This document shows positions 1,062 through 50,300 of a stretch of 64,000 nt of DNA, one piece after another. This DNA comes from Burkholderiales bacterium. GTDB taxonomy: Bacteria > Patescibacteriota > Minisyncoccia > Phycocordibacterales > UBA9973. The stretch lies in the NCBI GenBank assembly GCA_023701005.1, contig JAMPXW010000002.1, positions 177,167 through 241,166 on the forward strand. Direction: 5' to 3'. Below the pieces are notes generated by a model. It did no database searches and was not told the origin of the DNA. It saw nothing but the letters and a program-made list of their open reading frames with translations. Both the position numbers and the translations under genes were made by a program. Position 1 is the first letter of the stretch; every line of letters begins with the position of its first letter.

Positions 1062-1188
1062 ATTATTTTAAATAAAAATTATTACTAATAATATAAAATT
1101 ATAACGGTCTAATTTAAAAAGTAAAGCTCTATAAAATCCTTTAAAAACCCAACTACCAAGTGAAAAAGAAGTTTATCCACAATTAAAA

Positions 1189-7228: not shown

Positions 7229-7239
7229 ATAAATTACAA

Positions 7240-17497: not shown

Positions 17498-17634
17498 ATA
17501 TTTTTTATATTAATTAAATTTGTAATGTAATATATTTTATACGTAAAAAATAGATTACACAAGCAACCCCTGTGGATAACTAAAAAGCCATTGATAAAAA
17601 GCCATTTTTGTATTATTGTAATAATGGTAACCAT

Positions 17635-31616: not shown

Positions 31617-32498
31617 TTAACATAGATCCTTTTCTGCTTCAATAAATAAATCTAAATCACCATCGAGTACTTCATCTACATTTGAAGTTTCAGCATTTGT
31701 ACGATGATCTTTGACCATTTTATATGGATGTAATACATAAGAACGTATCTGACTCCCCCATTCTATGTCTGTGCCATAATTTTTATTATATATTTCTTCT
31801 ATACTTTTTTGTTCTTCTTCTGCTTTTTTAAATATTTTAGCTAAAAGTATCGCCATCGCCCTTTCTCTGTTTTGTTCTTGAGATCTTTCTTCTGAAGAAT
31901 GTGCAGAAATATTTGTAGGAATATGTACCAACCTCACTGCCGTCTCTCTCTTGTTCACATTCTGACCACCAGGGCCACCTGAACGACTATATTCTATTTT
32001 TATATCTGCTGGTGGAATATTAAAATCTTTTTCTTCTAATTTTGAAAATTTTGGCAATACTTCCACAAGAGAAAAAGAGGTGTGCCTCAACTTTTTCGCA
32101 TTAAAAGGAGAAATCCGCACCAATCGATGCACTCCTCCTTCGTTCTTTAACATTCCATAAACATTTTTACCTTTTATTTCAAAAGAAACATTTCTGTAAC
32201 CACCATGATCATTCTTATGTTCATGAATAAAAAATATTTCCCAAGCATTCTTGCTAGCATATTTCATGTACATATTTAAAAGCATAGAAGAAAAATCTTC
32301 TGCATCATCTCCTCCAGCACCAGATACTATCGTAACAATTGCATTGCCTTTATCATATTTTTTTGCACCAACAATCTTGTCTTTTAATTCTGCAATTCTT
32401 TTTAAAGTTGCTTGAGCTTTATTCTTGTCATTCCAAAAATCAACTTCCTGCATCTGCTTCTCTAAATTTTTTATTTCATTTTCTAAATCATTGTTCAT
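31617..32498 (-). CDS. prfB: Peptide chain release factor 2 (compact, 293 aa, no programmed frameshift)
   Basis: GGQ motif (SGGPGGQNVNKRETAVRLVHIPT) and SPF tripeptide (RISPFNAKK), diagnostic of RF2 rather than RF1; single uninterrupted ORF. Confidence 0.85.
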   Translation of the reverse strand: MNNDLENEIKNLEKQMQEVDFWNDKNKAQATLKRIAELKDKIVGAKKYDKGNAIVTIVSGAGGDDAEDFSSMLLNMYMKYASKNAWEIFFIHEHKNDHGGYRNVSFEIKGKNVYGMLKNEGGVHRLVRISPFNAKKLRHTSFSLVEVLPKFSKLEEKDFNIPPADIKIEYSRSGGPGGQNVNKRETAVRLVHIPTNISAHSSEERSQEQNRERAMAILLAKIFKKAEEEQKSIEEIYNKNYGTDIEWGSQIRSYVLHPYKMVKDHRTNAETSNVDEVLDGDLDLFIEAEKDLC

Positions 32499-33772: not shown

Positions 33773-33931
33773 TTATTTTAAATAATTTTGCAAAAAAAAT
33801 CTTTGCAAATAAATACCAAAAATAAAAACAGTGGAAAGTGTGGATAAGGTGGATAAATGAGCTTTATTAAAAAAATAAAAAAATATATAATCTATTTAAC
33901 AAATTAATATTTAAAAAAATTAAATAAAAAA

Positions 33932-34582
33932 ATGGAAACAAAAATAAAAATTAATAAGAAAGTTGTAGTCGGAATATTTGTACTAGCATTCTTTCTTGTC
34001 GTCCAGTTTTATTCTCTCATCGAAACAGCCATCGCAGCTTCTGCTACAGACAATGTCATCGTCACTCTTGATGTCACTTCTGGTATCACTATCTCTGACG
34101 GAGCAGCTGTCACCATGGCACCAAATCTAGGTATCGCCGCAGACCAATCTATCGGCACCTCATCTTGGCTCGTCAAAACAAACGCTGTCAATGGATACAC
34201 TCTCGCTGTCAAAGCTTCTGCTTCTCCTGCTCTCGTAAGTGGAGCAAACAGCTTTGCTGATTACACTGAAGGTACTCCTGGAACTCCAGATGTATGGAAC
34301 GTACCATCCGGCAGTAAAGAATTTGGATATTCTGCATATGGAACAGACACTCCCACAGCTACTTGGGGTACAGGAGCTTCTTGTGGAGCTGCTGGAGTAC
34401 CTACAGCAACTTTAAAATATGATGGATTCACTACTTCTGATAACACAATAGCTACTAGAGCTACTGTCACTCCTACTACAGGAATAACAACGACAATTTG
34501 TTTTGCTGCTGAACAAGATACAGTGTATGCCCCTTCTGGAACCTACACAGCTACCATCACAGCTACTGCAACAACATTGTAA
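33932..34582 (+). CDS. Secreted Thr/Ala/Gly-rich surface protein, WxL-domain-like
   Basis: Signal-anchor then TSSWLVKTNAVNGYTL (WxL-like motif); composition and size (216 aa) resemble Firmicutes WxL cell-surface proteins; locally elevated GC. Confidence 0.5.
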   Translation: METKIKINKKVVVGIFVLAFFLVVQFYSLIETAIAASATDNVIVTLDVTSGITISDGAAVTMAPNLGIAADQSIGTSSWLVKTNAVNGYTLAVKASASPALVSGANSFADYTEGTPGTPDVWNVPSGSKEFGYSAYGTDTPTATWGTGASCGAAGVPTATLKYDGFTTSDNTIATRATVTPTTGITTTICFAAEQDTVYAPSGTYTATITATATTL

Positions 34583-34612
34583 TTTTCAGTTACCCACATA
34601 TTAAATATCAAA

Positions 34613-35575
34613 ATGAAAAAACTTTTTTATATAATCGCCATATCAATGATCTTTGGTACTGTCATAGCGCCAAAGTTTTCTTTGGCGTTTCAGAAGAGCA
34701 AAATGGAGATGGTTCCTCAAAATGATTTCGTCGTAGAGCCAGGTAAAACCGAAGTTTTCTTAAACCCTGGAGACAATATGGTGAAAAATATTACCATTAC
34801 TAATCGTATAAACAAAACAGTTAGATTCAAATTGACCACCGAAGACTTCGTCGGGACAAATGATCCCAAACAACCTGTCCTTCTTTTAGGAGATGATCAC
34901 AGTCCATATTCTTTAAAAGATTTTATCGTTCCTGAAATACAAGAATTTTCTCTAGAACTTGGAGAAAAGATAACTATTCCTATCACCATATCCGTACCTA
35001 CAAATGCAGAACCAAGAGGATATTATGGGGCTTTGATTGTTTCTAATGACCCAGATAAACTCGAAGGTGAAAACTCTCAAGAAATAGAAGGTAAAACGAG
35101 AATCATTTCTAGAATAGGTTCTTTATTTTTACTCAAAATAAATGGTGAAGGAAAAGAAGAAGGAAATATTGAAGAATTTAAATTGATAGGCCCAGAACAA
35201 ACTTTCTACAGTGAAAGACCAGAAGGTTTTGAAATCGCATACAAAAATACAGGTAATGTGCACCTTGTCCCCTATGGAACGATCGCTATCAAAAATATTT
35301 TTGGGAAAATAGTAAAGACATTACCAGTAGATGCTTATTTTGTTCTTCCAGATTCTATAAGATATAGAGAAATAAAATGGGAGGATGGTTTTAGCTTAGG
35401 AAGATATACTGCGAATATACATCTAAACAAAGGCTACAATAATGAATATCAAGATATGAAACTAGCATTTTGGGTAATACCTTGGAAGATACTGATAATC
35501 GCCTTCATAGCTCTGGCTCTCATAATAGGCGCTCTATATTATCTCTTGACGCGGTTTGAATTAAGAAAAAAGTAA
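34613..35575 (+). CDS. Membrane-anchored surface protein, DUF916 + DUF3324-like architecture (WxL-locus partner)
   Basis: Signal peptide, beta-rich ectodomain, C-terminal TM helix + basic tail (ILIIAFIALALIIGALYYLLTRFELRKK), as in DUF916/DUF3324 proteins encoded beside WxL proteins. Confidence 0.5.
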   Translation: MKKLFYIIAISMIFGTVIAPKFSLAFQKSKMEMVPQNDFVVEPGKTEVFLNPGDNMVKNITITNRINKTVRFKLTTEDFVGTNDPKQPVLLLGDDHSPYSLKDFIVPEIQEFSLELGEKITIPITISVPTNAEPRGYYGALIVSNDPDKLEGENSQEIEGKTRIISRIGSLFLLKINGEGKEEGNIEEFKLIGPEQTFYSERPEGFEIAYKNTGNVHLVPYGTIAIKNIFGKIVKTLPVDAYFVLPDSIRYREIKWEDGFSLGRYTANIHLNKGYNNEYQDMKLAFWVIPWKILIIAFIALALIIGALYYLLTRFELRKK

Positions 35576-35578
35576 AAA

Positions 35579-36355
35579 ATGAAAAATATAATTCCATCTT
35601 TTCAAAAGAAAAGAAGTATTATGACATTCCTCTTTTTGCTCTTACTCATAATACCTCTATATAAAATATTTGCTGAAACAATGCAAAGCAACACATATCG
35701 TATCATGTCTGATACTGTAAATGTCGGCGGTACTGATGTGTCGGGTTCTACAAATTATAATCTAGGAGACACATTAGGAGAGATAGGTACGGGAGATTCA
35801 AATAGTGCAAATTATTTTTTACGTGCTGGTTTTTGGCAAATGCAAGAAAGCTATATCGCTCTATCTAGCCCTTCTGATTTGGCCCTCACCCCGATAGGTG
35901 GGATAAATGGTGAAGGAAGTGAAGGCACGATGTCTTGGACAGTCACCACAGATAATTTTGCAGGATATAGCATGAGTATAAATGTGACGAGTGTCCCCGC
36001 TTTGAGATCAGTCACTGATTCTTTTGATGATTATACACCCGCTTCTTCAGATCCTGATTATAATTTTTCAATAGCTTCAACGACTTCGGAATTCGGATTT
36101 TCTCCTGAAGGAGTAGACACTTCTGCCAGATTTAAAGATAATGGAGCATCTTGTAATGTAGGAACAAACGAAACACAAGCAAAATGTTGGGATGGTCTTT
36201 CTGTCTCTCCTAAAACAATATTTCAAAGGACTACGAGTAATCAGACAAGCGGGAGCACAGCCACTGTACGATTCAGAGCAGAATCTGGCGCAAATCATAT
36301 ACAGACATCAGGTAGCTATTCTGCCCCAATTATCGTAACAGCTGTCACACTATAA
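35579..36355 (+). CDS. Second secreted WxL-like Ser/Thr-rich surface protein (258 aa)
   Basis: Signal peptide; EGTMSWTVTTDNFAGYSM (WxL-like motif); 4 nt after previous stop, 1 nt before next start (operon). Confidence 0.5.
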   Translation: MKNIIPSFQKKRSIMTFLFLLLLIIPLYKIFAETMQSNTYRIMSDTVNVGGTDVSGSTNYNLGDTLGEIGTGDSNSANYFLRAGFWQMQESYIALSSPSDLALTPIGGINGEGSEGTMSWTVTTDNFAGYSMSINVTSVPALRSVTDSFDDYTPASSDPDYNFSIASTTSEFGFSPEGVDTSARFKDNGASCNVGTNETQAKCWDGLSVSPKTIFQRTTSNQTSGSTATVRFRAESGANHIQTSGSYSAPIIVTAVTL

Positions 36356-36356
36356 A

Positions 36357-37796
36357 ATGAAAAATATAAAGAGAACAACTTTATCTTTTATTGCAATAAT
36401 TCTATTTAATATTAATATCTCCTCTGTTTTAGCTCAAAATAACTCAATACAGGTAGAATTAGGTGTAATCGGCTGTAATAACAATGGGATATGTGAAGTC
36501 GGAGAATCTATAGCTTCTTGTCCAGTCGACTGTGCTGTCGTCATACCTCCACAACCCCCTGAAGCTCCTGGAAGTGTCGCTTTTCCTCAAGACATAGTCA
36601 TTCTCAATTTGGCTATACAACCAAATTTTACGAATGCTTTTATAACCTGGAACAGTTCTGAAAGTGCAATAAGCACTATAAGATGGGGTGAAACTACAGA
36701 AGTGAGAGAAGGAACGTTAAAAAGTATTGTTTATGCTTTAAATCACAAAGTAGAGTTGATAAACCTTAAGCCAGGAACAATGTATTACTTCACGATCGAG
36801 AGTACTGGAGTAAATGGCAAAAACAGTACTCACCCACCTACTTATTTCTTTACTAAATTTCCAAAAGACACTACCCTCCCTTCAAACCCTCGTAATGTAA
36901 AAACATTTGCTGATATAAATGGAATAACTTTGACCTGGGAAAATCCTAATGAGGAAAATTTTTCATATGTGCGTATTATGCGACACGAAGACAGATTTAG
37001 AGGAAATCCATATTTAGGTAAATTAATTTATGAAGGAGATGAAGAAAGATTTTTAGATAAAAATGTCATACCGGGCAAAAAATATTTTTATACTTTATTT
37101 TCTAGGGATATAAATAAAAACTTTTCTTCTGGAGTTGCTGTTTCTGAAACAGCTTATTTAAAAAATAAATTACCTCCTGTAAAAGAAGAACCTACCGAAA
37201 AACCAATTGAGACAAAAAAGGAAGAAGACATCGTCACTCCATCAAAAGAAAAAGAAACAAAAAAAAACACCACCCCACTCCAACCAAACATTGGAGTACC
37301 CCTCCTTGATAAAGGAGGGGTAAAAAAGAGTGATATCGCTTTTTTTGTACATCAATACAATCAAGTTGTCGAAGAACTTTTGCCTAATAAAAAAATAATT
37401 ATAGATGGAAACAAAAGTACTATCGTAGATACTGATTCAAAAACTTTAGCTGATGACTTTTTAAATGTGTTTGACGAAAACAAAAAATTAATTGCTCAAT
37501 ATTTATTCTCTTTCAATAAAGATAGTATGCGCTATCAAAGTGTGATCTCTCCCCTAGAAAAACCGGGAACATATTTCATAGAAATTTTTAGATATAGAGA
37601 AAATATTTTAACAAAAATAGCTGAGGGAACTCTTTTTGTGGAAGGAAATTTCATCGCAAAAAATGAAAAATCTGTAAACAATTTTCAATATATTTATGAA
37701 AATTACTTTTTATATATATTAATTCTACTTCTAACACTATTTTTAATAATTGTCTATCTCCTCTTGAGACGAAAAAAGCAAGAAAAACAAGGCTAA
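36357..37796 (+). CDS. Surface protein with fibronectin type-III-like domains, Lys/Glu/Pro-rich linker and C-terminal TM anchor
   Basis: Signal peptide; FTNAFITWNSSESAISTIRWGETTE...YYFTIEST and NPRNVKTFADINGITLTWENP...YVRIMRHE (two FN3/PAP-N-like beta-sandwich signatures); C-terminal YILILLLTLFLIIVYLLLRRKKQEKQG. Confidence 0.6.
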   Translation: MKNIKRTTLSFIAIILFNINISSVLAQNNSIQVELGVIGCNNNGICEVGESIASCPVDCAVVIPPQPPEAPGSVAFPQDIVILNLAIQPNFTNAFITWNSSESAISTIRWGETTEVREGTLKSIVYALNHKVELINLKPGTMYYFTIESTGVNGKNSTHPPTYFFTKFPKDTTLPSNPRNVKTFADINGITLTWENPNEENFSYVRIMRHEDRFRGNPYLGKLIYEGDEERFLDKNVIPGKKYFYTLFSRDINKNFSSGVAVSETAYLKNKLPPVKEEPTEKPIETKKEEDIVTPSKEKETKKNTTPLQPNIGVPLLDKGGVKKSDIAFFVHQYNQVVEELLPNKKIIIDGNKSTIVDTDSKTLADDFLNVFDENKKLIAQYLFSFNKDSMRYQSVISPLEKPGTYFIEIFRYRENILTKIAEGTLFVEGNFIAKNEKSVNNFQYIYENYFLYILILLLTLFLIIVYLLLRRKKQEKQG

Positions 37797-37818: not shown

Positions 37819-37836
37819 TGTAAGGGCCGTCCTTAC
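37819..37836 (+). terminator. Hairpin GTAAGG-gccgt-CCTTAC after the surface-protein operon (weak T-tract)
   Basis: Read directly 23 nt after the stop of 36357..37796. Confidence 0.35.
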
Positions 37837-37976
37837 CCCTCTAAAAATGTGGATAACTAGTGGATATGCTGTTCATTATCTACTATAATATAAGGGTATA
37901 AAAAAATATCGGATACCCGAGATACAGATTTTTTACACCTCGGACATCCGAGAAAGTATTATATATCTTTACAAAA

Positions 37977-38336
37977 ATGGGAAATCTTAAAAAAGCACTA
38001 TCTTTAAATCAAGCTTCAAAAATTTCTGGCTATCATCCAGATTATTTGAGTGCTTTAATACGTAAAGGAGAGATAAAAGGAGAGAAAATCAGTGGAAGTT
38101 GGTTTACGACAGAAGAAGAAATAAAAGACTACATTTTCAAACAAAAAATTAGACACAAAAGATTAGATATCGGAGGCTTCCTATCCCCTAAAAGAACGGG
38201 TAAGGTTTTTGTCCTTACTAGTGTTTTATTCTTAGCTACCATTTTAGCAGTAATTTATATTTACGGAAAAACAGCGCAAGTGCATTTAGAAGAAGGAAGG
38301 AAAACTCTTTCCACTGATGTTGAAGTAGTTGAGTAG
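37977..38336 (+). CDS. Small membrane-anchored helix-turn-helix protein (excisionase/MerR-like HTH + single TM), candidate regulator immediately upstream of giant gene
   Basis: LSLNQASKISGYHPDYLSALIRKGEIKGEKISGSWFTTEEEI resembles HTH_17/excisionase-type DNA-binding domain; followed by TM helix VFVLTSVLFLATILAVIYIY. Confidence 0.55.
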   Translation: MGNLKKALSLNQASKISGYHPDYLSALIRKGEIKGEKISGSWFTTEEEIKDYIFKQKIRHKRLDIGGFLSPKRTGKVFVLTSVLFLATILAVIYIYGKTAQVHLEEGRKTLSTDVEVVE

Positions 38337-38374: not shown

Positions 38375-41300
38375 ATGTTAAAAACAAAATTACAAATAAA
38401 TAAAATAAATACAACAAAGATTATCTTTGCAATATTTATTTTAATTTTTGTATTCTCCCCTTTTGCAAAAGGAGAAGCTGCAATAAATAAACAAATCAAT
38501 TATCAAGGTAAACTCACTGGAAGTAGTGGAGTCGCTGTATCAAACGGAACATATAACATGGAATTCAAACTGTACACTGTAAGTTCTGGTGGCACAGCTA
38601 TCTGGACAGAGACAAGAACAGATGCAAACAAAGTCCAAGTGACGAGCGGACTCTTTAGTGTGCTATTAGGAGAGGTTTCTACTTTGGACAATGTTGATTT
38701 CAATCAGACACTTTATTTAGGAGTAAACATCGGAGGTACAGCTGTCTCTCCTGCTTGGGATGGTGAAATGACCCCACGTAAAAAACTCGGAACAGTGCCT
38801 AGTGCTGTTGTCGCAGAGAAAGCTATAAACATACTTGGTGGTTCTGCAGGATATGTTCCCTTCCAAACAGCTGCAAACACAACTTCATTTTCATCCAATT
38901 TCTTTTGGGATAATTCTACAGCAAAATTAGGTATCGGGACAACGGCACCAGTACAAAAATTAACTATATCGGGTGGCAATATAAAACTTGATGATAGCTA
39001 TTATCTTGATTGGTCAAATGGAAGTGAAAGAATTACAGGTACAGGTTTAAGTGGAAACTATTCATTAAAATTTGAAACCTACAATGGCAGTGCATTGACA
39101 GAAAAAATGAGAATCCTAGGAAACGGTAATATAGGTATCGGGACGACAGCGCCTAATGCACTTTTGCATCTTTCTGGATCTGCAGGATCAAATGGACCAA
39201 ATTCAGGTTTAATATTAAATGCATCTTATGGTTTGGGTACTTCAGTAAACAACATTGATTTTAGAATTAATGGAAATGCAATCAGAGCTGCATCTCTTGG
39301 TGCTGCAGCTAATGTTGGAGGAGCTGATTTAACATTTTACACTTCATCAAACTTTGCGACAACAGATGCCACAGAAAAAATGAGAATCGACAAAAACGGC
39401 AACGTAGGTATCGGGACAACGGCACCAGGATTTAAATTAGATGTTAACGGAATATCTGCGGCAAATCAGTTTTATTCAGGAGGAGTTAATATAACTAGTA
39501 GCGGTATCTGGGGTGTAGGTAGTAGTGCTGAAGCTTTAATTGGTTTTGGAAGTGCTCAAGCAGGAGGAGCAAGACCCTGGAATTTTTCTTCTGGCGGAAC
39601 TGGTAAAACAGGTGGTTATTTTACCTGGAATATAGATACAGTAGAAAAAATGCGTCTTGATAATTCCGGCAACGTCGGCATCGGGACGACAGCGCCGGGG
39701 GCAAAGCTGCATGTTGAAGGAACTAATGAAATTTTATCTTTAACAGGAACAACTCCTTATCTTCGTTTCTTTGCAAATCCATCACAAAGTTATATTGGTT
39801 CTGGTTCTGGCTTGGTTTCTGGTATGGCAGTTACAGATTTAGCAATACGCTCTGCATCAAATATTGGTTTTTCAATTGGGACAAGTGAAAAGGTTAGGAT
39901 AGATAGTAGCGGTAACGTCGGCATCGGGACGACGGCACCAGTAGAAAAATTAAATGTAAATGGAAACATCAATATTACTGGCGGAGAATTAAGAATGTTT
40001 AACAATTCTACAGTTTTAGCTGCAACTTCATCTAACTTATTATCAATCAACAACGGTGGATTTAGTAATGTAGCTATAACAAACGGTAATATCGGCATAG
40101 GAACAACGACACCAGCTTACAAATTACACGTAAATGGCGTCGCTTATTCTTCTTCTTATTTCTATGCTCCTGAAGGTATATTTACATCAGTACAAGCAAA
40201 TAAAGTATTTCCAACTTCTTCTGTAGATTTACGATTACAAACTAGAGATAACACAGATAATATTTTATTTGAAATAGATACAAATGCTCCTTCAGAAAAA
40301 ATGAGAATCACCTCAGCAGGCAACGTCGGTATCGGGACGACGGCACCAACATACAAATTACAAGTTGCGACAGCAGTAAATTCTGCTGGAATTGTACATT
40401 CAAATTCATCCAATGGAACTAGAGTCTATACATTTATTGATTCTTCTGATAACGGATTATTACTTCTAAAAAATAGTAGCAATATCGATAATATAAATTT
40501 GAATACTGGTGGTAATAGTTATTTAAACGGTGGCAACGTCGGTATTGGGACAACAGCTCCAGGACAAAAGCTTGATGTAGTAGGAGGAAGTATAAGAACA
40601 GATAATCAATTAATTTCTACAATAGCAACAGGTACTTCCCCATTATCCATCTTATCTACAACAAAAGTCACAAACTTAAATGCCGACATATTAGATGGAT
40701 ATCATTATAATTCATTTATTCCAGTAAGTGGTTATCACTTTACAAACGGATATTTGATAGCGACAGACATCTCTGCAGCAAGCAACACAATGTTTAGTGT
40801 AGAAATAACCGGAAATAGCTATGGGGATGGAAAACCGATTCATATAACACTTCAAGGATACAACTATACTGCAGGAGACGCTATCATAAATTATTCTGGA
40901 GTCGCAGAAGATTGGACCAGAACCGTAAAAGCATTCAACTATAATGGATACTTATATTTCTGGCTCGATCAAAGTTCTTCATTCCAATCCATCACTGCTT
41001 ATGTAAAAAATACAATGGAAACAAATAATGTAAATCATGTCACAGCTATCACCAACGAAGTAGAGCCAACAACAGGCACAACCAGAAAAGTTTCTATAGT
41101 TCCAAAACAAATTTGGAATTCTGGAAATGATGGAGTTGCTTCTACATTGGATGCTGATTTGTTAGATGGACAACATGGTTCATATTATCAAACTGCTTTG
41201 ACTAATCCTGTCACTGGCACAGGTACAACAAATTATCTTTCTAAATTTACTGGTACTTCTACTTTAGGAAATTCTTTAATTTTTGATAATGGAACTAATG

Positions 41301-44300
41301 TGGGTATTGGGACGACGGCACCAACTCAAAAACTTTCTATAAATGGTTCAGTAAACATGATTTCTAACGGTGCAATAACTTTTGAAAATACTAATAATAA
41401 TGGAAATTGGTATATAAGAAATTCTGGTACAAATTTAGCATCATTAGATTTTGGAATTGGAGCTGTTGGTGCGAGTGACAAAATAAGATTTGATAGTAAC
41501 GGCAACGTCGGTATCGGGACGACAGCGCCAGGAGCAACCTTGGATGTTGCTGGAACAATTAGAACAACTTCAACAATCACAACTGGTTCATATTTTTATA
41601 ATAATTCAGCTTCTGATGCTAATAAATATCTTACAAACACGCCAGGGCCAAGCTATATGGGTTTTAGAGGACATGGAATAAACAATAATACAAATTCAGT
41701 ATTATCAATTGGTTATACAACTTTACCATCTACTCTAATTTCTCCTGTCTTGTCGGTAGTTGATAATGGTAACGTCGGTATCGGGACGACGGCACCAACT
41801 CAAATGTTACAAATTGGAGGAAACACTACATCTTCCATAGGAATGAGGATAGCTCCTGCTGGCGCAAATTGGGACATAGTCACTGATGGCAGTCAGGGCT
41901 TAAACATTAAAAATGGAAATGGGAATTATTTAACTTTCATTAATTCATCACAAATATCTTCTTTTACAGGAAACGTCGGTATCGGGACAACAGCGCCAAC
42001 CGCAAAATTAGATATAAATAATGGGGTAAATCGTACAAACAATCCAACTAGTTTAATAGTTGCTGGCACTGGAGTACTTGGAACAACAGCTGGTAGTTAC
42101 CTATATCCGTCAGAAACAATATCAAATGCCGGAAATACTTTAAGGCTACAAACAACAGCGTACCGTAGAGATGCTGGAAGTACATGGTTCGGGGCTGGTT
42201 TCAGAATACAATATGCTGTAGACAATAGTTTTACAGATGGAACTGGTTCTTTCTTAGAAATGGGTGGACGAACTGACACAACTCCTTATATATCATTAGG
42301 TACTTCTGGAGCTGATAGAATTTATATTAATTCTTCTGGCAACGTCGGTATTGGGACAACAAGTCCAAGTGGAAAATTGGAAATAAATGGTGGAGCTTAT
42401 GATTCTTCACTTGTTATTACAACAAATGTTTCTAGTGGTGCTGATATTAAATTAAATCAAACAGGAACAAATGGAAGGGAGTGGCATATAACTTCAACTG
42501 GAAGCTCAAATGCAATGAGTGCTGGAGGTTTACAATTTTATGATGACACTGCTGGTGCTTTTAGAATGGGTATTCAAGGATCTACTGGTAATGTCGGGAT
42601 AAATACGGGGAATCCACAAGCAAAATTACATATTTATAATGCTACAGCTGGTGGATTAAATGAAACCATCCGTTCTCAGGGATATTGGTCTGCTCCAGGT
42701 TCTGGTTCTTTAATCAGATTCACTAATTATCATGCTTCCGGAACCACCCCAAACACAGGCGAATACAACTTAGCTGGAATAGGAGGGTTAGATGATAATG
42801 GAGGTTGGGGTGGTTCTTTATACTTCCAAACAGCACCGACAGGTACAGCAGGTGGAGCAGCGTTACAAACCAGAATGACAATCAACCCTGCCGGTAACGT
42901 CGGTATCGGGACGACGAGTCCAGGAACTAAATTAAACGTAATTGGTAATATAGCATCTGAAAAATCAGCAGGTGGATATGTATCCTCTTTATTTTGGCAG
43001 GGCAATGATCCAGCAATCGGTTATTATTCGGAAAATGGTTTGCTTTTTGGTACTGAAACTACAATGGTAGGTGGGGCTTTTAGTGAAAAGATGAGGATAA
43101 CAAACGCAGGCAACGTCGGCATCGGGACGACGGCACCTGCTCAAGCATTAGATGTGGCTGGTGTCATCAATGCTTCAACAGGATTTAGAATAGGAAATGC
43201 TGCTACTTCTGGTAATTATCTCCGAGGAAATGGAACAAATTTTGTTTCAAGTGCCATTCAAGCTGGAGACGTCCCTACCCTAAACCAAAATACCGCTGGT
43301 TATGCTGCACTCTTGGTGAGTGAAGACAATAGAACAATTTCTCCAAGCGAGCTAGCTATCAACCGATTAAAATTTGGTTTTACTAGTTGGGCAAACAACG
43401 ACAGCTCTCCTTATGCAGATTTCTTGCATTTGAGAAGTTACGCTGATTCCTCAGGAGGAGCTGACAACTTAATAATGTTCAACAAGAGTGTAATAGCAAT
43501 GAGAATCTATCAGCAAACATTCGGTTCTGCTACTGCATATTCTTCTTATAGAGATGTCATAACAACAAACACAAGCGCAAGTGGTACTGCAAATTATTTA
43601 CCTAAATTTTCTAGCGGAACAACAATTGCAAATTCATTAATTTTTGATAACGGAACTAACGTGGGTATCGGACTCACTAATCCTGAAGGTAAAATGCATA
43701 TTATTGGCATGAATAGTGCCTTCCCTGCTACTACGGGAACCGTTCAAACTGGATTAGAGGCTCGATTTCAACCTTATGACTCTAACGGAGTATTAGACAT
43801 AGGTGTTAACTCTGGAAGTGGAGCTTGGTTGCAATCAACTAATCGAACTAGTTTAAGTAGCAATTACCCATTGTTATTAAATCCAAATGGAGGCAACGTC
43901 GGTATCGGGACGACAGCGCCAGCCACAAATCTTGATGTAGTCGGAGATATAAGAGCAAGTGATACTTCAGGAAATTATATTTATCTTGACACGACAGGTG
44001 CAAATCCAGGCATCGTTTCAAATTCTAGCAGGTCAATCAATATACAACCTGGGTCAGGCCTAACCACTTTTTATACCTCAGGTACTGCCGGTACTCTTCA
44101 AATATATGATGGTAGTTCTTCATATCCGATTATATTGAGAGCAGGCGGTAATAGTATATTCAATGGTGGTAGCGTCGGTATCGGAACTGCAAGCCCTGCT
44201 TCAAAATTACATGTCTACGACAACAACGCAACCACAGATCACACTATCGGACTTACGATAGAACAAGCAGGTACAGGTGATGCAAAATTACAATGGCTCA

Positions 44301-47300
44301 CGACAGGCGTGACACGTTTTGGAATGGGTATAGACAATAGTGATGGAGATAAATTAAAAATATCTGCAGCCACAGACTTAAGTACAAACAATGTTTTGAC
44401 AATCGATTCTTCTTCTAATGTCGGTATCGGAACTGCAAGCCCTGGAGTACTTTTGCATTTATCAAAAAATGGAACAGCAAGCACACAAACAGTAATGGCT
44501 GTTTTAGAATCTGTCACCTCTCAAAGGCCAGTATTACAATTTAGTGAAGGTGGCTATGGTTTGACTAGTGGGATGAGCATTGAATACGATGGCAGGAGTG
44601 GAGGAAGAGCAAATCTATTAAATATAAATGATATTAATGGTGTAGCAATCGGAACATTCATGAGTGGCGGGAATTTTGGAATTCAAACTACATCCCCTAC
44701 TGCAAATTTGACAGTCGCTCAAAGCACAGCAGGAGTCGGAACAGTTTCAAATACAGCAGGAGGAACGACAGTCACAGGTAATGGCACAGAATTTACAAAC
44801 ACATTTAAAGTCGGAGATACCATAACAGTCGGAGGACAAACTGTCGCTATTTCAGCTATCGCGAGTGACACTAGTATGACAACTGCAGCCATAACAAATG
44901 CAAACACAAACGCTGCATACACATTAGTAGGTGGAACAAGAATGGTTGTAAAAGGTAATGGAAATGTTGGCATTGGTTTAACGAATCCTTCTGCAAGACT
45001 TCATATTTCTGAAGCAGGACCAGCATATGATTGGGACTCGTTGAGAGTAGATTTTCAAGCAAATGGAAATTTGAATAGTTTAAATTCTTCAGCTGGTAGA
45101 TTCATAAATACTCTCGCACCAAGCTCTCAATCTTATGCTATCGGTTCATTAGGAGAAGCAATAAAAACAGGGCACTATGGCTACACGGCCACAGGAGCAG
45201 AAGGTCGTGGAATATATAGAAGTAATTCTTTAGGAACAAGCTTAGCTTCATTAGATTTGTACGGTGTTAGTGGTAAAGTGTCTGTCGAAGGCACAGGAGC
45301 AAACACAATCAATTCAGGAAAATCTTTGTATGCTTATGCCAACGTAGACGCTGGAAATATTTTAAGTACTTACTGGGGAGTTTATGTAAAATCTCCATCA
45401 GGAACAGGAACGATAACAAACAAATACGCATTAGTCACAGAAGCAGGTGCGGGAAACGTGGGAATTGGTTTGACTAACCCAGGCTTCCCTCTCGCAGTGC
45501 AAGGAACAATACAAGGAAGAGGCATAGCTTATTTCACTCAAGCTTCACCAACAAATTCTCTAGCGATAGATGCAACTTCAACAACTTTACACAAAATTTA
45601 TACAAACAATGCTGGTATTGATTTATCTTTGGGAACAAATAGTTCAACTTCACAATTATATTTACAATCTGCAGGCAACGTCGGTATCGGGACAACGAGT
45701 CCAGGAGCAAAATTAGATATCCTCGGATCAAATAGTGCAATGGCCTTAAATCTCAGAAGTTCTAGTGGCCAAATTCAATTTTTCCCATACAGTGATAATA
45801 AAAATTACATAGAAAGCGTAGACGGTACTGGTACAGCTTCACAACTTCTCTACTTCACTGGATACAGTGGAACAGCAGGAACATTTTCTTTTAATGGCAA
45901 CGTCGGTATCGGGATGACTTCACCAACTTACAAATTAGATTTGCAAGGATCAGCTTGGAACAATATTGCACGTATATATTCTACAGGTAGCTCTAGTGGC
46001 TTAGACTTTTATGATTCTGGAGTAAGACGTGGTGTTGTTTATAGTGATTCTAGTGGTTTTGGATTATTAAATAGTGCTACTAGTTGGGCTATTAAAATAC
46101 CTTACGGTACAGGTAATGTTGTCGTAGAAAATGGAAATATGGGTGTCGGAACATCAAGCCCAAGTGCAAAATTAGATGTCGTTGGAAATATAGAATTAGG
46201 AGCAGCTGTCGGCACCACTAGATATATCTTAACAGACGAAACAAACACCGGTACTGGAAAAGTCGCAATACAAGCAGGAGCTGGTTCAGCAGCCTTTGGT
46301 GGTGCTATAAATCTTTATGCTCAAGCACATGCTACAAATCCTGGATGGGTACAAATTGGTATTGGTTCTGGGGCTGGAAGTGGAGGGACAGAAGGAAGAT
46401 TTACTGTAAACAATCAAGGACTAGGTGGAGGAACTGATGTCTTCACAGTATTAAGAACAGGTAACGTCGGCATCGGGACGACGGGGCCGAGTCAGAAATT
46501 GGAAGTTAATGGTAATGCATTAGTAACAAAACTTGGAATCGGTCAACTTGATGCCGCGAATTATGTGTTGGATGTAGGTGGTGCGGCGAGAATCTCTTCA
46601 AGCGGAAATGTGAATTTTAATCAGGCAAGTGGCGCTGCGACTTTTCATGGACAAGTAAATTTCCCTGGGTCAGGGGTTTGGCAAACAAGCGGCAACGTCG
46701 GCATCGGGACGACGAGCCCAAATCAAAGATTAGAAATTGGTAGTTCCGGAAATTACCAAATGCGCATAGGTAATGGTTCTACCGCTGCTTATTCATATGA
46801 TTTTGGAAGAAATACAACAGATGGTTTATTTTATTTATACGGAAATCAAACTGGAGCAAACGGATATGTTTTTAGTGGAATAAATGGTGAAAGAATGAGA
46901 ATAAATGAAAGTGGTAACGTCGGCATCGGGACGACAGCACCTGGAACTAAATTAGATATTGCTGGAACCATGCACACAACAGGCCTATATACTGCGAGCG
47001 CGGGTATCCAACTTGAAGGTCAAAATTTAGGCTGGGATCAAAGTGGAGTTAGATCTTGGACAATGGGAACAGCTGCTTCTAGTGGCAATATGACATTAAA
47101 ATCTGGAGATGAAGCTGGAATTTTTCGTGTTTTAACAACAACAACTTCATTAAGTGGTAATTTAATTGTTTCTGGTACTACAAATAGTTCTATCGCTGGA
47201 AATCTAGGTATTGGAACGATAAATCCTGGAGCTGATTTAGTTATAGAAAACAGTGGTACAAACAATACCCAACTATGGTTACAAAATACTGGTACAGGTA

Positions 47301-50300
47301 TTACAGAAATCGGTTTTGATTCGGCAAATGGAGATTTCGCTGGTAGCGATTACATGTCTTTGGGGCAAAATGATTCATTGGATGGATATATTAAAATGTT
47401 TGCTAACGCTGGAAGATTTCATATAGATACAGGAGGAGTTGAAAGATTTACTATCTTACAAAATGGAAATCTAGGTATCGGAACAACAGCACCAGGGTCA
47501 AGATTGGTAGTTAGTTCAGCTGGGATTGTTGCAGGGACACCTGAATTTGTTGTCGGTGATTATGGAACAATAAAATTAAAAACATACCAGACTGGAAGTA
47601 CTTATGCAGCGATGTATACAGGCAACAATGAAGACTTAAGAATCACTGCTGGAACAGATAATAGTCAATTAGTACTAAAAGCAAATAATGGAAACATTGG
47701 AATTGGTACTGCCTCCCCTACCGCCTTCAAGCTCCAAGTCGCAGGAAGTGTCGGACCAAATGTAGACAATTCTTATGACTTAGGTTCTTCTGGAGCAAGA
47801 TGGAGAAACTTATACATCTCTGGGACGATAGCTCAAGGAGGATATTTAGATAATAGTTTAGACAATTTAGTTTACAACGGAGATTTTGAAACAAATTCTA
47901 CAAATGGTTGGACGGGGGGAGGCACAGCAATAGTCACAGGAGGACATTCTGGAAATTATGCAATGCAAGTGACAGGCAACCAACAAATAGAAAGTGTTGA
48001 CTACATCCCCGTCAATCCTGTAAGAGATATTTTACAATTAGAAATCTACGCGAAAAAGTCTGTAGCTGGAACTACACCAGGAATACTCTATTTAGGATAT
48101 ATTGCATATGATGCAAACAAAGCAGCCATTTACACAGCTCCTTGTGGATCATATTGTTATTTTGCTGCTTCTGCTTATACATTACCAGCAGATGGAAATT
48201 GGCATAAATTCAATGCAACGACAAACGGTGAAGGTACGGTTTATCCCAACTTCCCTGTCGGGACGAAATTCGTTCGTGTATTAGGATTAATAAACTACAG
48301 TGGATCTGCAGATGCAGTGACTTTAATAGACCATATCACATTAAAGAGATTAAATTATGGACCTACATACATAGGAAACAACTTCGGAACGACAAACCAA
48401 GCAGACCAAACTCAATTGAGTAAACTCTACACAACTTCTGTAAATAATTTAATAATAGATACTCCTGCTAGTAACGGAAATATAGGATTCGGAATAACAA
48501 ATCCAAATCCTTTTGCTTGGTCATCCAAAGCATTCACTCTTCAATCTACTGGTACAAATACTTATTCATCTCTTGAAGCTTTTGGAACAGGTACAGGGTC
48601 TGGAGCATTATTGTTAGGTAACAGCACCATTCACAGAGCAACTATATCTACAGCTGACGGTTCTCACCTCACATTCTCAACAAACAATAACAACGCCGCT
48701 TCATACATGACAGAAAAAATGAGAATCACTGCAACGGGCAACGTCGGAATCGGAACGACTTCTCCAGATCAATTATTGCAAGTAAATGGCGCCAGCGGCA
48801 CAGCGATAAGTATCAAAACTCCTTGGGCTGCGAGTGCTTATGGTCAATTGAGATTTGATACAGGAACAGGTAGCTCTTCTATCCGTTCTTCTGTGCCTGG
48901 TGATTCTACAAATGGTTTACAATTCTTTACTTACTCTGGTGGAGAGACTGTAAAAATGTCTATCACTGGTGCAGGCAATGTTGGTATCGGACTCACAAAT
49001 CCAGCATACAAATTAGATGTTGTCGGAGGAATTCATTGGAATCCTGGAGTGACAGGTTCTCCTGAAGGCTTTATGTCTGGATCAAGCGCTGAACAATCTA
49101 TTCAACTAGGATCATTAACAAATAGTCCCCTTTCCCTAACAACAAATGCCCTAACGAGATTATTCATTGATGGAAATGGAAATGTCGGTATCGGGACGAC
49201 AGTACCAACTTACAAAGTAGACATAGCTTCCACAGGTAATGCCTTAAAGATAGGTCAATCAGGAACAGCTACAAACACCATCTATCAAACATTCACAAAC
49301 GGTGGAGGAAGTGTTTATCTTGGAATAGATAATTCTGGAGGTAATGGATTATTCACAGGAGGCGCAGGCTATGCTGCAGCTTTCGGACATGGAGGAAATT
49401 ATCCAATAGAATTCGCGACAAATAGTACTGTCAGAATGCTCATCGACGGTTCCGGAAATGTGGGAGTAGGTACAGCGACACCACAATATGGAAAATTAGA
49501 AATAGCAACCACTGCATCTAATGTTGGAGGTTTAACCTTGTATCGTGGAACAGGAACGACGGCTAGACACTGGATCAATTCATCTGATGTTTACTTAATT
49601 CAAAGAGCTATTACTGACACTTATGGCATTGCAATAGACAACGTTGGAAATGTCGGCATCGGAACGACAAGTCCAGTCAGTATCTTAAACATTAATGCAA
49701 CTTCTCCAGTACTTACTCTTACGGGTTCTACAAGTGGACAAGAAACTATTGCTTCACAAATTCACTTTGCCGTCGGTAATTATTCTGGAGCAAGAATCAA
49801 AGCGATCCAAACGGGAGCAAGCTATGGTTATCAAGTTGGGTTAGGATTTTTTACACAAGACGCTCCATACGATGCTAACTCTTTTGAAAGAATGAGAATA
49901 TCAAGCACCGGAAACGTCGGCATCGGGACGACGGCGCCAGGTAAAACTCTTGATATAGCAGTTTCTCCCAATGCTAGTAATGGTATTTTGGTAAGAGATA
50001 ATAATGATGCAACAAAATCTATATTAATTACGAGTTCACAAGGATCCACTGCCTTCCCGTACATTGGTACAAATGGTAATAGGCGTCTTGATTTTGGTAC
50101 AAATACTGCACGACAAATGACAATAGATACAACCGGCAACGTCGGTATCGGGACAACGGCACCGAACGCGCCTTTGTCATTTGGAACAGTTACAGGGGAT
50201 AAGATTTATCTCTATGATGGAAGTGGCAATTATGGATTTGGTGTGGACTCGGGAGGGGCTTCCCAACTAAACATCTTCACAGGAAATTCTGCGGATATGT

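What the first reader, a model, noticed from the sequence alone, without database searches (positions are those of the whole stretch)
37840..38336. Membrane-tethered HTH protein with upstream inverted repeat and DnaA-box-like pair directly preceding the giant gene
A 119-aa ORF combines an excisionase/MerR-like HTH (LSLNQASKISGYHPDYLSALIRKGEIKGEKISGSWFTTEEEI) with one TM helix. Small DNA-binding proteins of this kind are rarely membrane-anchored.

Its upstream region carries:
- TGTGGATAA plus AGTGGATAT (37848-37867);
- a TATAAT box (37884-37889);
- an imperfect inverted repeat CGGATACCCGAG ... CTCGGACATCCG (37910-37950), positioned like an operator.

The gene ends 38 nt before the giant gene start. 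It is a candidate dedicated regulator, or a membrane-associated partner, of giant-gene expression.
Basis: partly seen in the sequence, partly recalled or inferred. Interest (0 to 1): 0.5.

Follow-up and report, generated by a model that had tools for sequence, protein, structure and literature searches.

The report
Membrane-anchored HTH partner of giant fibre
The small gene is real: it encodes a membrane-anchored DNA-binding-type protein that ultra-small (CPR) bacteria place in front of, or fuse to, their giant surface-fibre genes, and it sits behind a highly conserved promoter and operator-like region, so it probably controls or anchors the fibre these cells are presumed to use for attachment.

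Summary
ORF 37977-38336 encodes a 119-aa bitopic protein: a cytoplasmic MerR/excisionase-type winged HTH, one TM helix and a roughly 21-aa outside tail.

It is conserved in Patescibacteria (CPR). It is the free-standing form of an N-terminal "wHTH(x1-3)-TM" head found in about 4,650 protein clusters. Many of these are large surface proteins, up to 4,310 aa.

In orthologous loci the same head is fused in-frame to the same fibre N-domain that starts the window's 7,453-aa gene. That ties the two genes together functionally.

The upstream DNA is under selection: 71.5% pairwise identity against 51% at third codon positions. The conserved elements are:
- an invariant perfect DnaA box;
- a second "box" that behaves as the -35 hexamer;
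- an invariant TATAATATA;
- two copies of a palindrome-like site (core TCGGATATCCGA) at about +13 and +44.

It is not a supported RNA hairpin, because no covariation was found.

Within CPR loci the palindrome is about 186-fold enriched in the leaders of HTH-head genes.

Best reading: a membrane-tethered autoregulator and partner of the giant-fibre operon, with DnaA input. DNA binding is inferred, not shown. I found no description of this module in the searched literature.

The parts
37848..37856 (-). Perfect DnaA-box consensus (TTATCCACA on the minus strand; reads TGTGGATAA on plus), about -49..-41 from the inferred TSS
   Evidence: 5 perfect boxes in the window against 0.71 expected. Invariant in 17 orthologous loci. 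Present within 300 nt upstream of HTH-head genes in 34 of 50 CPR loci, about 50-fold enriched. DnaA binding is inferred.
37859..37867 (+). Second box-like element AGTGGATAT. It contains the -35-like hexamer TGGATA (37861-37866).
   Evidence: 17-nt spacer to TATAAT, 10 of 12 matches; variable in orthologues (GTTGATAT, TTAGATAT, ATAGATTT), so it is constrained as a -35 rather than as a DnaA box.
37884..37892 (+). -10 element TATAAT, in the extended invariant block TATAATATA
   Evidence: invariant in 17 loci. The TSS is inferred near 37896; it has not been mapped.
37906..37923 (.). Operator-like palindrome copy 1 (ATATCGGATACCCGAGAT; core TCGGATACCCGA at 37909-37920), about +13..+24
   Evidence: The core family consensus is TCGGATATCCGA. 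The first copy starts a median of 19 nt after TATAAT in 33 loci.
37937..37954 (.). Operator-like palindrome copy 2 (core TCGGACATCCGA at 37940-37951), about +44..+55
   Evidence: It is absent in single-copy orthologues L013, L023 and L025.
37977..38336 (+). 119-aa HTH-TM gene. The cytoplasmic wHTH is residues ~7-53 (37995-38135). A basic juxtamembrane helix follows. The TM helix is residues 74-98 (38196-38270). The outside tail is residues 99-119 (38271-38333).
38375..60736 (+). Giant fibre gene, 7453 aa. It has a signal peptide, a conserved N-terminal beta-rich domain (weakly MAT_N-like) and a long Gly/Thr/Ser/Asn-rich body. A Peptidase_S74 chaperone domain and an Ig-like domain lie near the C-terminus. 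It is probably co-transcribed with the HTH-TM gene.
   Evidence: No terminator-like site in the 38-nt gap. The N-domain is conserved downstream of, or fused to, the HTH head in 29 loci.
33932..37796 (+). Context: four secreted proteins of 216, 320, 258 and 479 aa. The 320-aa and 479-aa proteins have C-terminal TM helices. The cluster resembles the CPR Pam pilus operon.
   Evidence: preprint 10.64898/2026.03.03.709456. Syntenic with the HTH head and fibre in 19 loci, including distant ones.

Best explanation
Shown:
- The ORF is a conserved gene for a bitopic membrane protein.
- Residues ~7-53 form a MerR/excisionase-type winged helix-turn-helix.
- A stretch rich in Lys/Arg precedes a single TM helix (residues 74-98), so the HTH faces the cytoplasm.
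- About 21 residues lie outside the membrane.
- It is the stand-alone version of a CPR-wide N-terminal head, wHTH x1-3 followed by a TM helix. Elsewhere this head is fused to large or giant extracellular proteins, including orthologues of this window's fibre at the same locus position.
- Here it lies 38 nt upstream of the 22-kb fibre gene and has its own strongly conserved promoter.

Inferred:
- The two genes form one operon.
- The wHTH binds, as a membrane-held dimer, the two palindrome-like sites (core TCGGATATCCGA) in the initially transcribed leader at about +13 and +44. It thereby feeds back on transcription of its own operon, most simply as a repressor or roadblock that limits synthesis of a very costly secreted fibre.
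- The invariant DnaA box just upstream of the -35 adds a DnaA (replication/cell-cycle) input.
- The short outside tail and the TM helix may also hold the fibre's N-terminal base domain at the membrane, doing non-covalently what the fused forms do covalently.
For: Fold and topology:
- Pfam HTH_17 match in 18 of 22 homologues.
- Confident AF2 model and Foldseek hits to DNA-binding wHTH proteins.
- One TM helix.

Family architecture:
- 4,651 clusters at E<=1e-3.
- In the best 150, the HTH starts within 30 residues of the N-terminus in 144.
- 90 have two tandem copies.
- 120 have one TM helix a median of 24.5 aa after the last HTH.
- 18 are at least 1000 aa long.

Link to the fibre:
- A large ORF follows in 23 of 25 close loci, mostly at -4..+12 nt.
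- L039, L034 and L028 carry HTH-TM and the fibre N-domain in one frame. L039 lies downstream of the same four-gene cluster.
- L172 is a 3,340-aa "tail fiber domain" protein with the same head and the same leader.

Cis elements:
- The upstream DNA is 71.5% identical, against 51% at third codon positions.
- Palindrome hits with at most 1 mismatch: 20 in the 2.1% of bases lying within 260 nt upstream of HTH domains, against 5 elsewhere. This is about 186-fold enrichment, and 4 of those 5 also lie upstream of HTH genes.
- The palindrome's distance to the -10 is tighter (IQR 19-21 nt) than its distance to the ATG (1-158 nt).
- It is also present before distant and fused members in Saccharibacteria, Magasanikbacteria and others.
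- The recognition-helix signature GYHxDYLS is invariant, matching an invariant site.
- No other HTH-head copy and no small soluble MerR gene were found in the window.

No covariation supports an RNA structure, and there is no Rfam hit.
Against: - No binding or expression data exist. The HTH-to-palindrome link is guilt by association.
- The window protein scores below Pfam's HTH_17 threshold, and the Foldseek E-values are weak.
- The perfect 18-mer palindrome is not specific globally. Only 5 of 120 metagenome hits precede an HTH-head gene, and about 60 belong to one soil lineage upstream of an unrelated SHOCT membrane protein.
- Some fused giants (L173, L174) lack a recognisable palindrome and have a small soluble MerR-type gene nearby that could be the real regulator there.
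- The palindrome half-site TATCCGA resembles a relaxed DnaA box, so DnaA alone could occupy the leader.
- A membrane-fixed repressor must reach its operator. This is plausible in cells about 0.2-0.3 um across but is untested.
Confidence: 0.5

Rival explanations
1. Anchor or assembly partner only. The wHTH is a protein-interaction domain, as in RodZ-MreB or the MerR-like CbpM-CbpA pair. It docks the fibre base, via the TM helix and tail, to a cytoplasmic structure or to the secretion machinery. The conserved box and palindromes are bound by other factors, such as DnaA or an unlinked regulator.
For: - The fused forms show that the head's constant job is to sit at the membrane end of big surface proteins.
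- The Bdellovibrio MAT fibre N-domain is thought to bind an unknown surface element (PMC10769870).
- CbpM appears among the fold hits.
- The palindrome half-site resembles a relaxed DnaA box.
- A small soluble MerR gene lies next to L173 and L174.
Against: - The sequence pattern is a typical HTH_17 DNA-binding pattern, and most fold neighbours are DNA binders.
- The palindrome follows the HTH-head genes across phyla in both split and fused forms.
- In the split form the fibre has its own signal peptide and is not covalently held.
- The outside tail is only about 21 aa long and is conserved only in the closest subgroup.
Confidence: 0.25
2. Gene-to-membrane tether. The wHTH binds its own leader DNA not to regulate initiation but to hold the 22-kb gene at the membrane. 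This would be RacA-like DNA anchoring that helps coupled transcription, translation and secretion of a 7,453-aa protein.
For: - RacA, a MerR-like wHTH that anchors DNA to the cell pole, is a top fold hit.
- The sites lie inside the transcribed leader of very long secreted-protein genes.
Against: - There is no precedent for a gene-specific tether.
- Binding at +13..+55 would obstruct RNA polymerase, so it is hard to separate from repression.
- Many family members are short proteins (67 of 150 are under 200 aa), although many of these are contig fragments.
Confidence: 0.1
3. The conserved leader acts as RNA: a 5' stabilising hairpin, or a translational operator, for a very long mRNA. On this reading the HTH protein is unrelated to it.
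For: - The sites are transcribed.
- Perfect palindromes in distant lineages could form 7-bp hairpins.
- In Saccharibacteria the site abuts the ATG.
Against: - RNAalifold finds no consensus structure.
- The long hairpin is 67.6% paired against 68.8% in shuffles.
- The local hairpins are 66.8% paired against 67.2% in shuffles.
- Variable positions break pairs, and the left half-site is degenerate in most orthologues.
- Single-copy loci exist.
- There is no Rfam match.
- Spacing is fixed to the -10 element, not to the ATG.
Confidence: 0.08
4. Leftover mobile-element excisionase, or a chance ORF in the 3' region of the upstream operon.
For: - Weak PHROG excisionase hit, E 3.6e-4.
- A REP-type tyrosine-transposase-like ORF lies after the giant gene.
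Against: - No integrase gene was identified among the called genes next to the HTH gene in the window or in L001.
- Chromosomal synteny is fixed across many species.
- 84 or more homologue clusters with invariant residues and a conserved TM helix.
- The gene has its own conserved promoter.
Confidence: 0.02

Closest known systems
ToxR / CadC / TcpP-type membrane-tethered one-component regulators
   Same: Same topology: an N-terminal cytoplasmic DNA-binding domain, a single TM helix and an extracytoplasmic part. The logic proposed here is also the same: the protein regulates transcription while fixed in the membrane.
   Different: - Those proteins use an OmpR-type winged helix. Here the domain is MerR/excisionase (HTH_17) type, often in 2-3 tandem copies.
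- Here the outside part is either about 21 aa or a giant fibre of up to thousands of residues.
- The candidate operator lies in the transcribed leader of the protein's own gene.
TraN of Enterococcus plasmid pIP501, and small HTH_17/MerR-like DNA binders (Xis, RdfS, BldC)
   Same: These are the best structural matches. TraN carries two excisionase-like wHTH units in one chain, as do the 2-copy family members. From my own knowledge, not checked here: TraN represses its type IV secretion operon, and Xis and BldC bind repeated sites.
   Different: - All of them are soluble, with no TM helix.
- There is no detectable sequence relationship; the PDB profile search found nothing.
- No integrase or conjugation context is present here.
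RacA (Bacillus subtilis chromosome anchor)
   Same: It has a MerR-like wHTH fold. The idea of a DNA-binding domain held at the envelope is shared.
   Different: From my own knowledge, not checked here: RacA is tethered indirectly through DivIVA, binds many sites near oriC and acts in sporulation. Here the tether is a direct TM helix, and the sites are specific to the gene's own leader.
RodZ
   Same: Both are bitopic proteins with a cytoplasmic HTH, one TM helix and an outside domain. RodZ shows that a membrane-tethered HTH can bind protein instead of DNA (from my own knowledge, not checked here).
   Different: The RodZ HTH is described as Xre-type (my own knowledge). The fold hits found here are MerR/Xis-type. 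No link to mreB or cell-shape genes was seen or tested.
Bdellovibrio MAT chimeric fibres / phage tail-fibre-like adhesins (for the partner gene)
   Same: Same layout: a signal peptide, a conserved N-terminal beta-rich base domain, a long fibre and an S74 intramolecular chaperone (PMC10769870).
   Different: - The match to Bdello_MAT_N is far below the cut-off (23 bits against 60).
- The protein is 7,453 aa long.
- It comes from a CPR host.
- It is preceded by, or fused to, the wHTH-TM head, which MAT proteins are not reported to have.
N-terminal motifs of very large surface proteins (ESPR, YSIRK, KxYKxGKxW signal-peptide extensions)
   Same: Each is a conserved N-terminal element placed before the hydrophobic segment of giant surface proteins (from my own knowledge, not checked here).
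   Different: Those are short motifs that act in cis on export. Here the element is a folded wHTH domain of about 50 aa. In this window it is a separate polypeptide, and the fibre keeps an ordinary signal peptide.

Membership tests
Pfam HTH_17 (PF12728) / excisionase-type MerR-like winged HTH | Sequence match at or above the curated gathering score | tested here: not met
   The window protein scores 22.7 bits against a cut-off of 27, E 1.2e-4. However, 18 of 22 homologues match at E<=0.01, best 2.7e-6, and several carry precomputed PF12728 hits.
Pfam HTH_17 (PF12728) / excisionase-type MerR-like winged HTH | Fold: strand, helix-turn-helix, beta-hairpin wing, helix | tested here: met
   The AF2 model gives E7-9, H10-17, H21-30, E35-38/E41-45 and H46-, with pLDDT 87-90 over residues 11-50. 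Foldseek matches TraN, RacA, BldC, Xis, RdfS, SoxR and CarH at rmsd 1.5-2.6 A with probability ~0.96-1.0.
Pfam HTH_17 (PF12728) / excisionase-type MerR-like winged HTH | Sequence-specific DNA binding | not testable with these tools
   The only evidence is indirect: the palindrome is co-conserved with HTH-head genes.
Recombination directionality factor (excisionase, Xis) | Linked integrase/recombinase and a mobile-element context | tested here: not met
   No integrase was identified among the neighbouring genes that were scanned or had Pfam calls. The chromosomal synteny ftsE, prfB, cysK-like, 4-gene cluster, HTH, fibre is conserved.
Canonical MerR-family transcription activators | C-terminal effector-binding domain after a dimerisation helix; operator placed between -35 and -10 with a 19-20 bp spacer | tested here: not met
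   After the wHTH come a basic helix and a TM helix, with no effector domain. The spacer is 17 nt, and the palindromes lie downstream of the -10.
ToxR-like membrane-tethered regulators | Cytoplasmic N-terminal DNA-binding domain, single TM helix, outside segment | tested here: met
   There is one TM helix, at residues 74-98. By my count from the sequence, the N-side flank (residues 54-76) has 9 Lys/Arg and the C-side flank (residues 99-119) has 3 Lys/Arg and 6 Asp/Glu.
ToxR-like membrane-tethered regulators | OmpR/PhoB-type winged-helix DNA-binding domain | tested here: not met
   Pfam and the fold hits are MerR/Xis-type. No OmpR-type hit appears among the listed fold matches.
DnaA box | 9-mer matching TTATCCACA | tested here: met
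   37848-37856 is a perfect match. It is invariant in orthologues. It is about 50-fold enriched upstream of HTH-head genes. The second element, 37859-37867, matches only 7 of 9 positions and varies in orthologues.
DnaA box | Bound by DnaA | not testable with these tools
   No binding data are available. It is not an oriC: there is a single conserved box at a promoter, found in many different genomic contexts.
Structured RNA leader (hairpin / riboregulator) | Base pairs maintained through compensatory change | tested here: not met
   pairing is no better than in shuffles, and there is no covariation. There is no Rfam family above its gathering score.
CPR Pam pilus operon (context genes 33932-37796) | Match to the Pam family models; secreted Ig-like pilins plus chaperones with a C-terminal TM helix | tested here: inconclusive
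   Only the 258-aa protein hits PamT, at 46 bits against a cut-off of 240. All four proteins have signal peptides, and two have C-terminal TM helices as described for PamC, PamD and PamR (preprint). No structures were predicted.

The most novel reading that the evidence does not exclude
The wHTH-TM head makes giant CPR surface fibres, or their split partners, into one-component contact sensors. The state of the extracellular fibre (assembled, loaded or bound to a host cell) would be relayed through the single TM helix, or by regulated proteolytic release of the head. The relay would reach a cytoplasmic DNA-binding domain that acts on a shared palindrome in the leaders of all such genes. This would give ultra-small episymbionts a direct route from surface to genome that controls their attachment apparatus, gated by DnaA. 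A related variant: the nascent N-terminal HTH binds its own gene in cis while the 22-kb gene is still being transcribed, enforcing one round of synthesis at a time.
Probability: 0.15. Interest if true: 0.85.

Novelty: new variant of a known kind. Interest (0 to 1): 0.65.

Why it matters
CPR/Patescibacteria are a large and mostly uncultured part of bacterial diversity. They live attached to other microbes, have few recognisable regulators, and encode puzzling giant surface proteins.

This analysis identifies a CPR-wide module, apparently undescribed, at the head of such proteins: a MerR/Xis-type HTH plus a TM helix. It is paired with a conserved promoter, DnaA box and palindrome.

That gives a concrete, testable handle on how attachment fibres are controlled and held at the membrane. 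It also offers:
- an annotation rule for thousands of "hypothetical" proteins;
- a candidate regulon motif;
- a natural split/fused pair for experiments in tractable Saccharibacteria.

Tried and rejected
1. RNA hairpin between the two arms, and local hairpins in each copy. Rejected as unsupported: RNAalifold found nothing, and pair counts equalled the shuffles.
2. Known RNA family. There was no Rfam hit above noise.
3. Reverse test, from motif to gene, in metagenomes with the perfect 18-mer. It was not specific globally: only 5 of 120 hits precede HTH-head genes. Most hits come from one ~52% GC soil lineage upstream of a SHOCT-type membrane protein, or from GATATC-like simple repeats. The specificity claim is therefore restricted to CPR loci.
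4. oriC. Rejected. There is a single conserved box at a promoter in many genome contexts. The GC-skew minimum near 36-38 kb coincides with gene-strand switches and the start of the giant gene, so it is not diagnostic.
5. Excisionase or prophage origin. Rejected on context.
6. A second HTH-head copy, or a small soluble MerR regulator, in the window. None was found.
7. A solved relative by sequence. None was found.
8. Literature. There was no paper on this module.
9. One hit, L051, is an AraC-type protein sharing only the GYHPDYLSALF motif. I treated it as a false relative.
10. The split form as an assembly artefact. Rejected. There are double stop codons, a frame change, a separate signal peptide, and the same layout in more than 20 independent MAGs.
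Full report
**1. What is in the sequence**

The window has about 30% G+C, rising to about 40% inside one 22-kb ORF.

It ends with two TAG codons. It lies 38 nt before, and in a different frame from, ORF 38375..60736 (7,453 aa).

The upstream motifs are at the stated positions:
- TGTGGATAA at 37848-37856. This is the perfect DnaA-box 9-mer on the minus strand.
- AGTGGATAT at 37859-37867.
- TATAAT at 37884-37889, with TGGATA 17 nt upstream, scoring 10 of 12.
- The arms CGGATACCCGAG (37910-37921) and CTCGGACATCCG (37939-37950).

Within the window alone, promoter-like hits are not above shuffles (3 found against 4.4 expected). The evidence that these elements are real comes from comparison with other genomes.

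**2. The protein**

- Pfam gives HTH_17 at E 1.2e-4, 22.7 bits, below the gathering score of 27.
- NCBIfam gives nothing.
- PHROGs gives a weak excisionase hit.
- 84 homologue clusters were found, and 232 with a profile. All that carry a source name are Nomurabacteria, Paceibacterota or other Patescibacteria, apart from a few apparently mis-binned MAGs.
- The alignment shows an invariant signature, L10 A13 G18 Y19 H20 D22 Y23 L24 S25 L27 R29 K30 G35 W42.
- 18 of 22 members hit HTH_17.
- The AF2 model has mean pLDDT 76, and 87-90 over residues 11-50. It gives a strand, a helix-turn-helix, a beta-hairpin wing and a long helix, followed by a long helix (71-111) that contains the membrane segment.
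- Foldseek against the PDB returns MerR/excisionase-type wHTH DNA binders: TraN, RacA, BldC, Pukovnik Xis, RdfS, SoxR and CarH. The rmsd is 1.5-2.6 A over 45-58 columns. E-values are weak (0.02-0.3) because the domain is small.
- No PDB relative is detectable by sequence.
- A hydropathy scan gives one TM segment, residues 74-98.
- By my count from the sequence, the flank before the TM helix (residues 54-76) has 9 Lys/Arg. The tail after it has 3 Lys/Arg and 6 acidic residues, so the HTH is cytoplasmic by the positive-inside rule.

**3. Link to the giant gene**

A scan of GTDB species genomes gave 49 loci.

In 23 of 25 close relatives, the 116-136-aa HTH-TM gene is followed on the same strand by a large ORF. 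The gap is mostly -4..+12 nt. These ORFs are 965 to 3,120 aa when complete, and are otherwise cut by the contig end. Contigs very often end inside this ORF.

In more distant lineages the same HTH domain is the N-terminus of a single long ORF, more than 900 to more than 3,388 aa.

L039 is decisive. Its single ORF reads: HTH, linker, TM, then "QTNYQGKLTGTTGIAVSNNTYNIRFKLY...". This is 57% identical to the N-domain that follows the signal peptide of the window's giant protein. It is in-frame and lies downstream of the same four-gene cluster. L034 and L028 are fused in-frame in the same way.

A full-library profile search found 4,651 clusters (50% identity) at E<=1e-3 and 826 at E<=1e-10. Among the best 150:
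- the domain starts within 30 residues of the N-terminus in 144;
- 90 have two tandem copies, 56 have one and 4 have three;
- 120 have a single TM helix a median of 24.5 aa after the last copy;
- 18 are at least 1,000 aa long, with a maximum of 4,310.

One fused member is named "tail fiber domain-containing protein" by NCBI.

The 119-aa protein is therefore the split form of a widespread head module of CPR surface proteins.

**4. The partner and the neighbourhood**

The giant protein has:
- a signal peptide and no other TM helix;
- a weak Bdello_MAT_N match at its N-terminus;
- a Gly/Thr/Ser/Asn-rich body;
- a Peptidase_S74 intramolecular-chaperone domain and an Ig-like domain near the C-terminus.

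This is a trimeric tail-fibre-like adhesin layout. For Bdellovibrio MAT fibres, the conserved N-domain is proposed to bind an unidentified cell-surface element (PMC10769870).

Upstream, 33932-37796 encodes four secreted proteins. Two have C-terminal TM helices. One is weakly PamT-like and one contains fn3. This resembles the recently described CPR Pam pilus operon, whose neighbourhood also contains a tail-fibre-like protein (preprint 10.64898/2026.03.03.709456).

This four-gene cluster travels with the HTH head and the fibre in 19 loci, including distant ones.

**5. The upstream DNA**

An alignment of 17 orthologous upstream regions shows these invariant or conserved blocks:
- TGTGGATAAC.T
- TATAATATA
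- ATATCG..T...CGAG
- a T-run
- CC.A.A
- a conserved TTATATATCTTTATA just before the ATG

Pairwise identity from box 1 to the ATG is 71.5%. In the best-conserved part of the CDS, identity is 51% at third codon positions and 80% at first and second positions. This indicates clear purifying selection on non-coding DNA.

Box 2 is variable (GTTGATAT, TTAGATAT, ATAGATTT). It sits exactly 17 nt before the -10, so I read it as the -35 hexamer rather than as a second DnaA box.

Box 1 is a perfect DnaA consensus:
- Perfect boxes number 5 in the window against 0.71 expected. Four lie between ORFs and one (4255) lies at the extreme 5' end of an ORF.
- Across 50 CPR loci, 35 perfect boxes lie within 300 nt upstream of HTH domains (34 loci) and 27 lie elsewhere in about 675 kb. 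Composition alone predicts about 8 in total.
- The orientation flips between lineages. That fits a factor-binding site rather than a promoter hexamer.

**6. The inverted repeat**

The two arms are two copies of one palindrome-like element with the family consensus TCGGATATCCGA. In this clade the right half, TATCCGA(G/T)A, is the better conserved.
- L013, L023 and L025 keep only one copy.
- RNAalifold predicts no consensus structure.
- The 12-bp inter-arm helix is 67.6% paired against 68.8% in shuffles.
- The local hairpins are 66.8% paired against 67.2% in shuffles.
- There is no Rfam hit.

The same element precedes distant and fused family members in Saccharibacteria, Magasanikbacteria, Doudnabacteria and others. 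In some it abuts the ATG.

In 692 kb of CPR loci, hits with at most 1 mismatch number 20 in the 2.1% of bases lying within 260 nt upstream of HTH domains, against 5 elsewhere. Four of those five are also upstream of HTH genes. This is about 186-fold enrichment.

The first copy starts a median of 19 nt (IQR 19-21) after TATAAT. The distance from the last copy to the ATG ranges from 1 to 158 nt. The element therefore keeps register with the promoter, at about +13 from an inferred TSS, which is a classic operator position.

In the window the motif occurs only at these two sites, apart from one 1-mismatch hit inside the giant gene.

**7. A caveat I looked for**

I started from the motif and scanned metagenomes for the perfect 18-mer ATATCGGATATCCGATAT. 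The scan returned more than 120 hits, but only 5 are followed by an HTH-head gene. In those five the start codon lies 7-28 nt after the palindrome.

About 60 hits come from one ~52% GC soil lineage upstream of a SHOCT-type membrane protein. Others are simple GATATC-like repeats.

The palindrome is therefore not unique to this system across all life. The association holds within CPR loci.

Two giant fused genes (L173, L174) lack a clear palindrome and have a 70-aa soluble MerR-type gene nearby. No such gene and no second HTH-head copy exist in the window.

**8. Mechanism**

Shown:
- a conserved membrane-anchored wHTH protein;
- its evolutionary interchange with an N-terminal head fused to the same fibre;
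- its own conserved promoter, with a DnaA box and leader palindromes that track the family.

Inferred, at about 0.5 confidence:
- The wHTH binds the palindromes and autoregulates the HTH-fibre operon from the membrane. It would act as a membrane-held dimer here, or as tandem copies in one chain elsewhere. The invariant recognition helix matches the invariant site.
- DnaA supplies a second input.
- The TM helix and tail may also retain the fibre base.

Rivals:
- an anchor-only role with a protein-binding HTH (0.25);
- a gene-to-membrane tether (0.1);
- an RNA-level role of the leader (0.08);
- an excisionase remnant or chance ORF (0.02).

The split architecture argues against the head being merely a signal-peptide extension, because the fibre here has an ordinary signal peptide.

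**9. Novelty**

Four literature searches found nothing on this module. Public sources name the proteins "hypothetical" or "helix-turn-helix domain-containing".

Membrane-tethered regulators are known, with ToxR and CadC as examples. What is new here is a MerR/Xis-type head on giant fibres together with a family-specific leader palindrome and a DnaA box. I therefore rate it a new variant of a known kind, with interest 0.65.

Noticed in passing
window 33932-37796: Four co-oriented secreted proteins of 216, 320, 258 and 479 aa. The 320-aa and 479-aa proteins have C-terminal TM helices. The 258-aa protein weakly matches NCBIfam CPR_pilus_PamT, and the 479-aa protein has fn3. This looks like a Pam-like (chaperone/donor-strand) pilus cluster in Paceibacteria. 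It is syntenic with the HTH head and the fibre in 19 loci.
   Followed up: partly
window 1173-1181, 4255-4263, 17571-17579, 33839-33856: Perfect DnaA-box 9-mers lie at other intergenic or 5'-end positions, often in the extended form cTGTGGATAACT. One is a tandem pair upstream of the Pam-like cluster. The window has 5 perfect boxes against 0.71 expected. DnaA, or another box-binding factor, may be a general promoter-proximal regulator in this genome.
   Followed up: partly
window 38375-60736 (giant ORF residues ~7039-7401): The Peptidase_S74 intramolecular-chaperone domain is not terminal. About 370 more residues follow it, including a Bact_surface_Ig-like domain and a Thr/Glu/Pro-rich tail. 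From my own knowledge, that is unusual for S74 fibres, which are normally cleaved at this domain.
   Followed up: no
window 60778-61506 (-); L172 20278-20952: A REP-associated tyrosine-transposase-like (Y1_Tnp) ORF lies directly downstream of the giant gene. A Y1_Tnp ORF is also found about 4 kb downstream of the fused 3,340-aa homologue in L172.
   Followed up: no
window 37820-37836 and 38200-38218: Two hairpins share the same arms, GTAAGG/CCTTAC. One lies after the upstream operon. The other lies inside the HTH-TM coding region and is followed by a T-rich stretch, so it was flagged as terminator-like. It could be an attenuator ahead of the giant gene.
   Followed up: no
L110 2718-2735 and about 60 similar metagenome loci (L053-L171): The perfect 18-mer palindrome ATATCGGATATCCGATAT, plus a second half-palindrome, sits upstream of a small SHOCT-type membrane protein (MSEHEWNRP...). 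This occurs in an abundant ~52% GC soil lineage and is an unrelated use of the same operator-like sequence.
   Followed up: partly
L173 5254-5466 (-); L174 4530-4745 (-): A 70-71-aa soluble MerR/HTH_17 protein is encoded on the opposite strand, roughly 0.5-1.3 kb upstream of two giant genes (4,310 and 3,936 aa) that carry 3 and 2 tandem HTH heads. It could be a separate regulator in those lineages.
   Followed up: partly
L035, L036, L044, L046, L048 (about 1.3 kb upstream of the fused gene): Saccharibacteria loci carry a second HTH-head paralogue of roughly 290 aa (stop-to-stop segment length) just upstream of the large fused gene. This suggests small families of such genes per genome that share one operator.
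   Followed up: no
window 31617-32498 (-): The prfB (RF2) ORF matches the family profile only from position 111 onward. This would be consistent with the usual programmed +1 frameshift splitting the gene, but I did not examine it.
   Followed up: no
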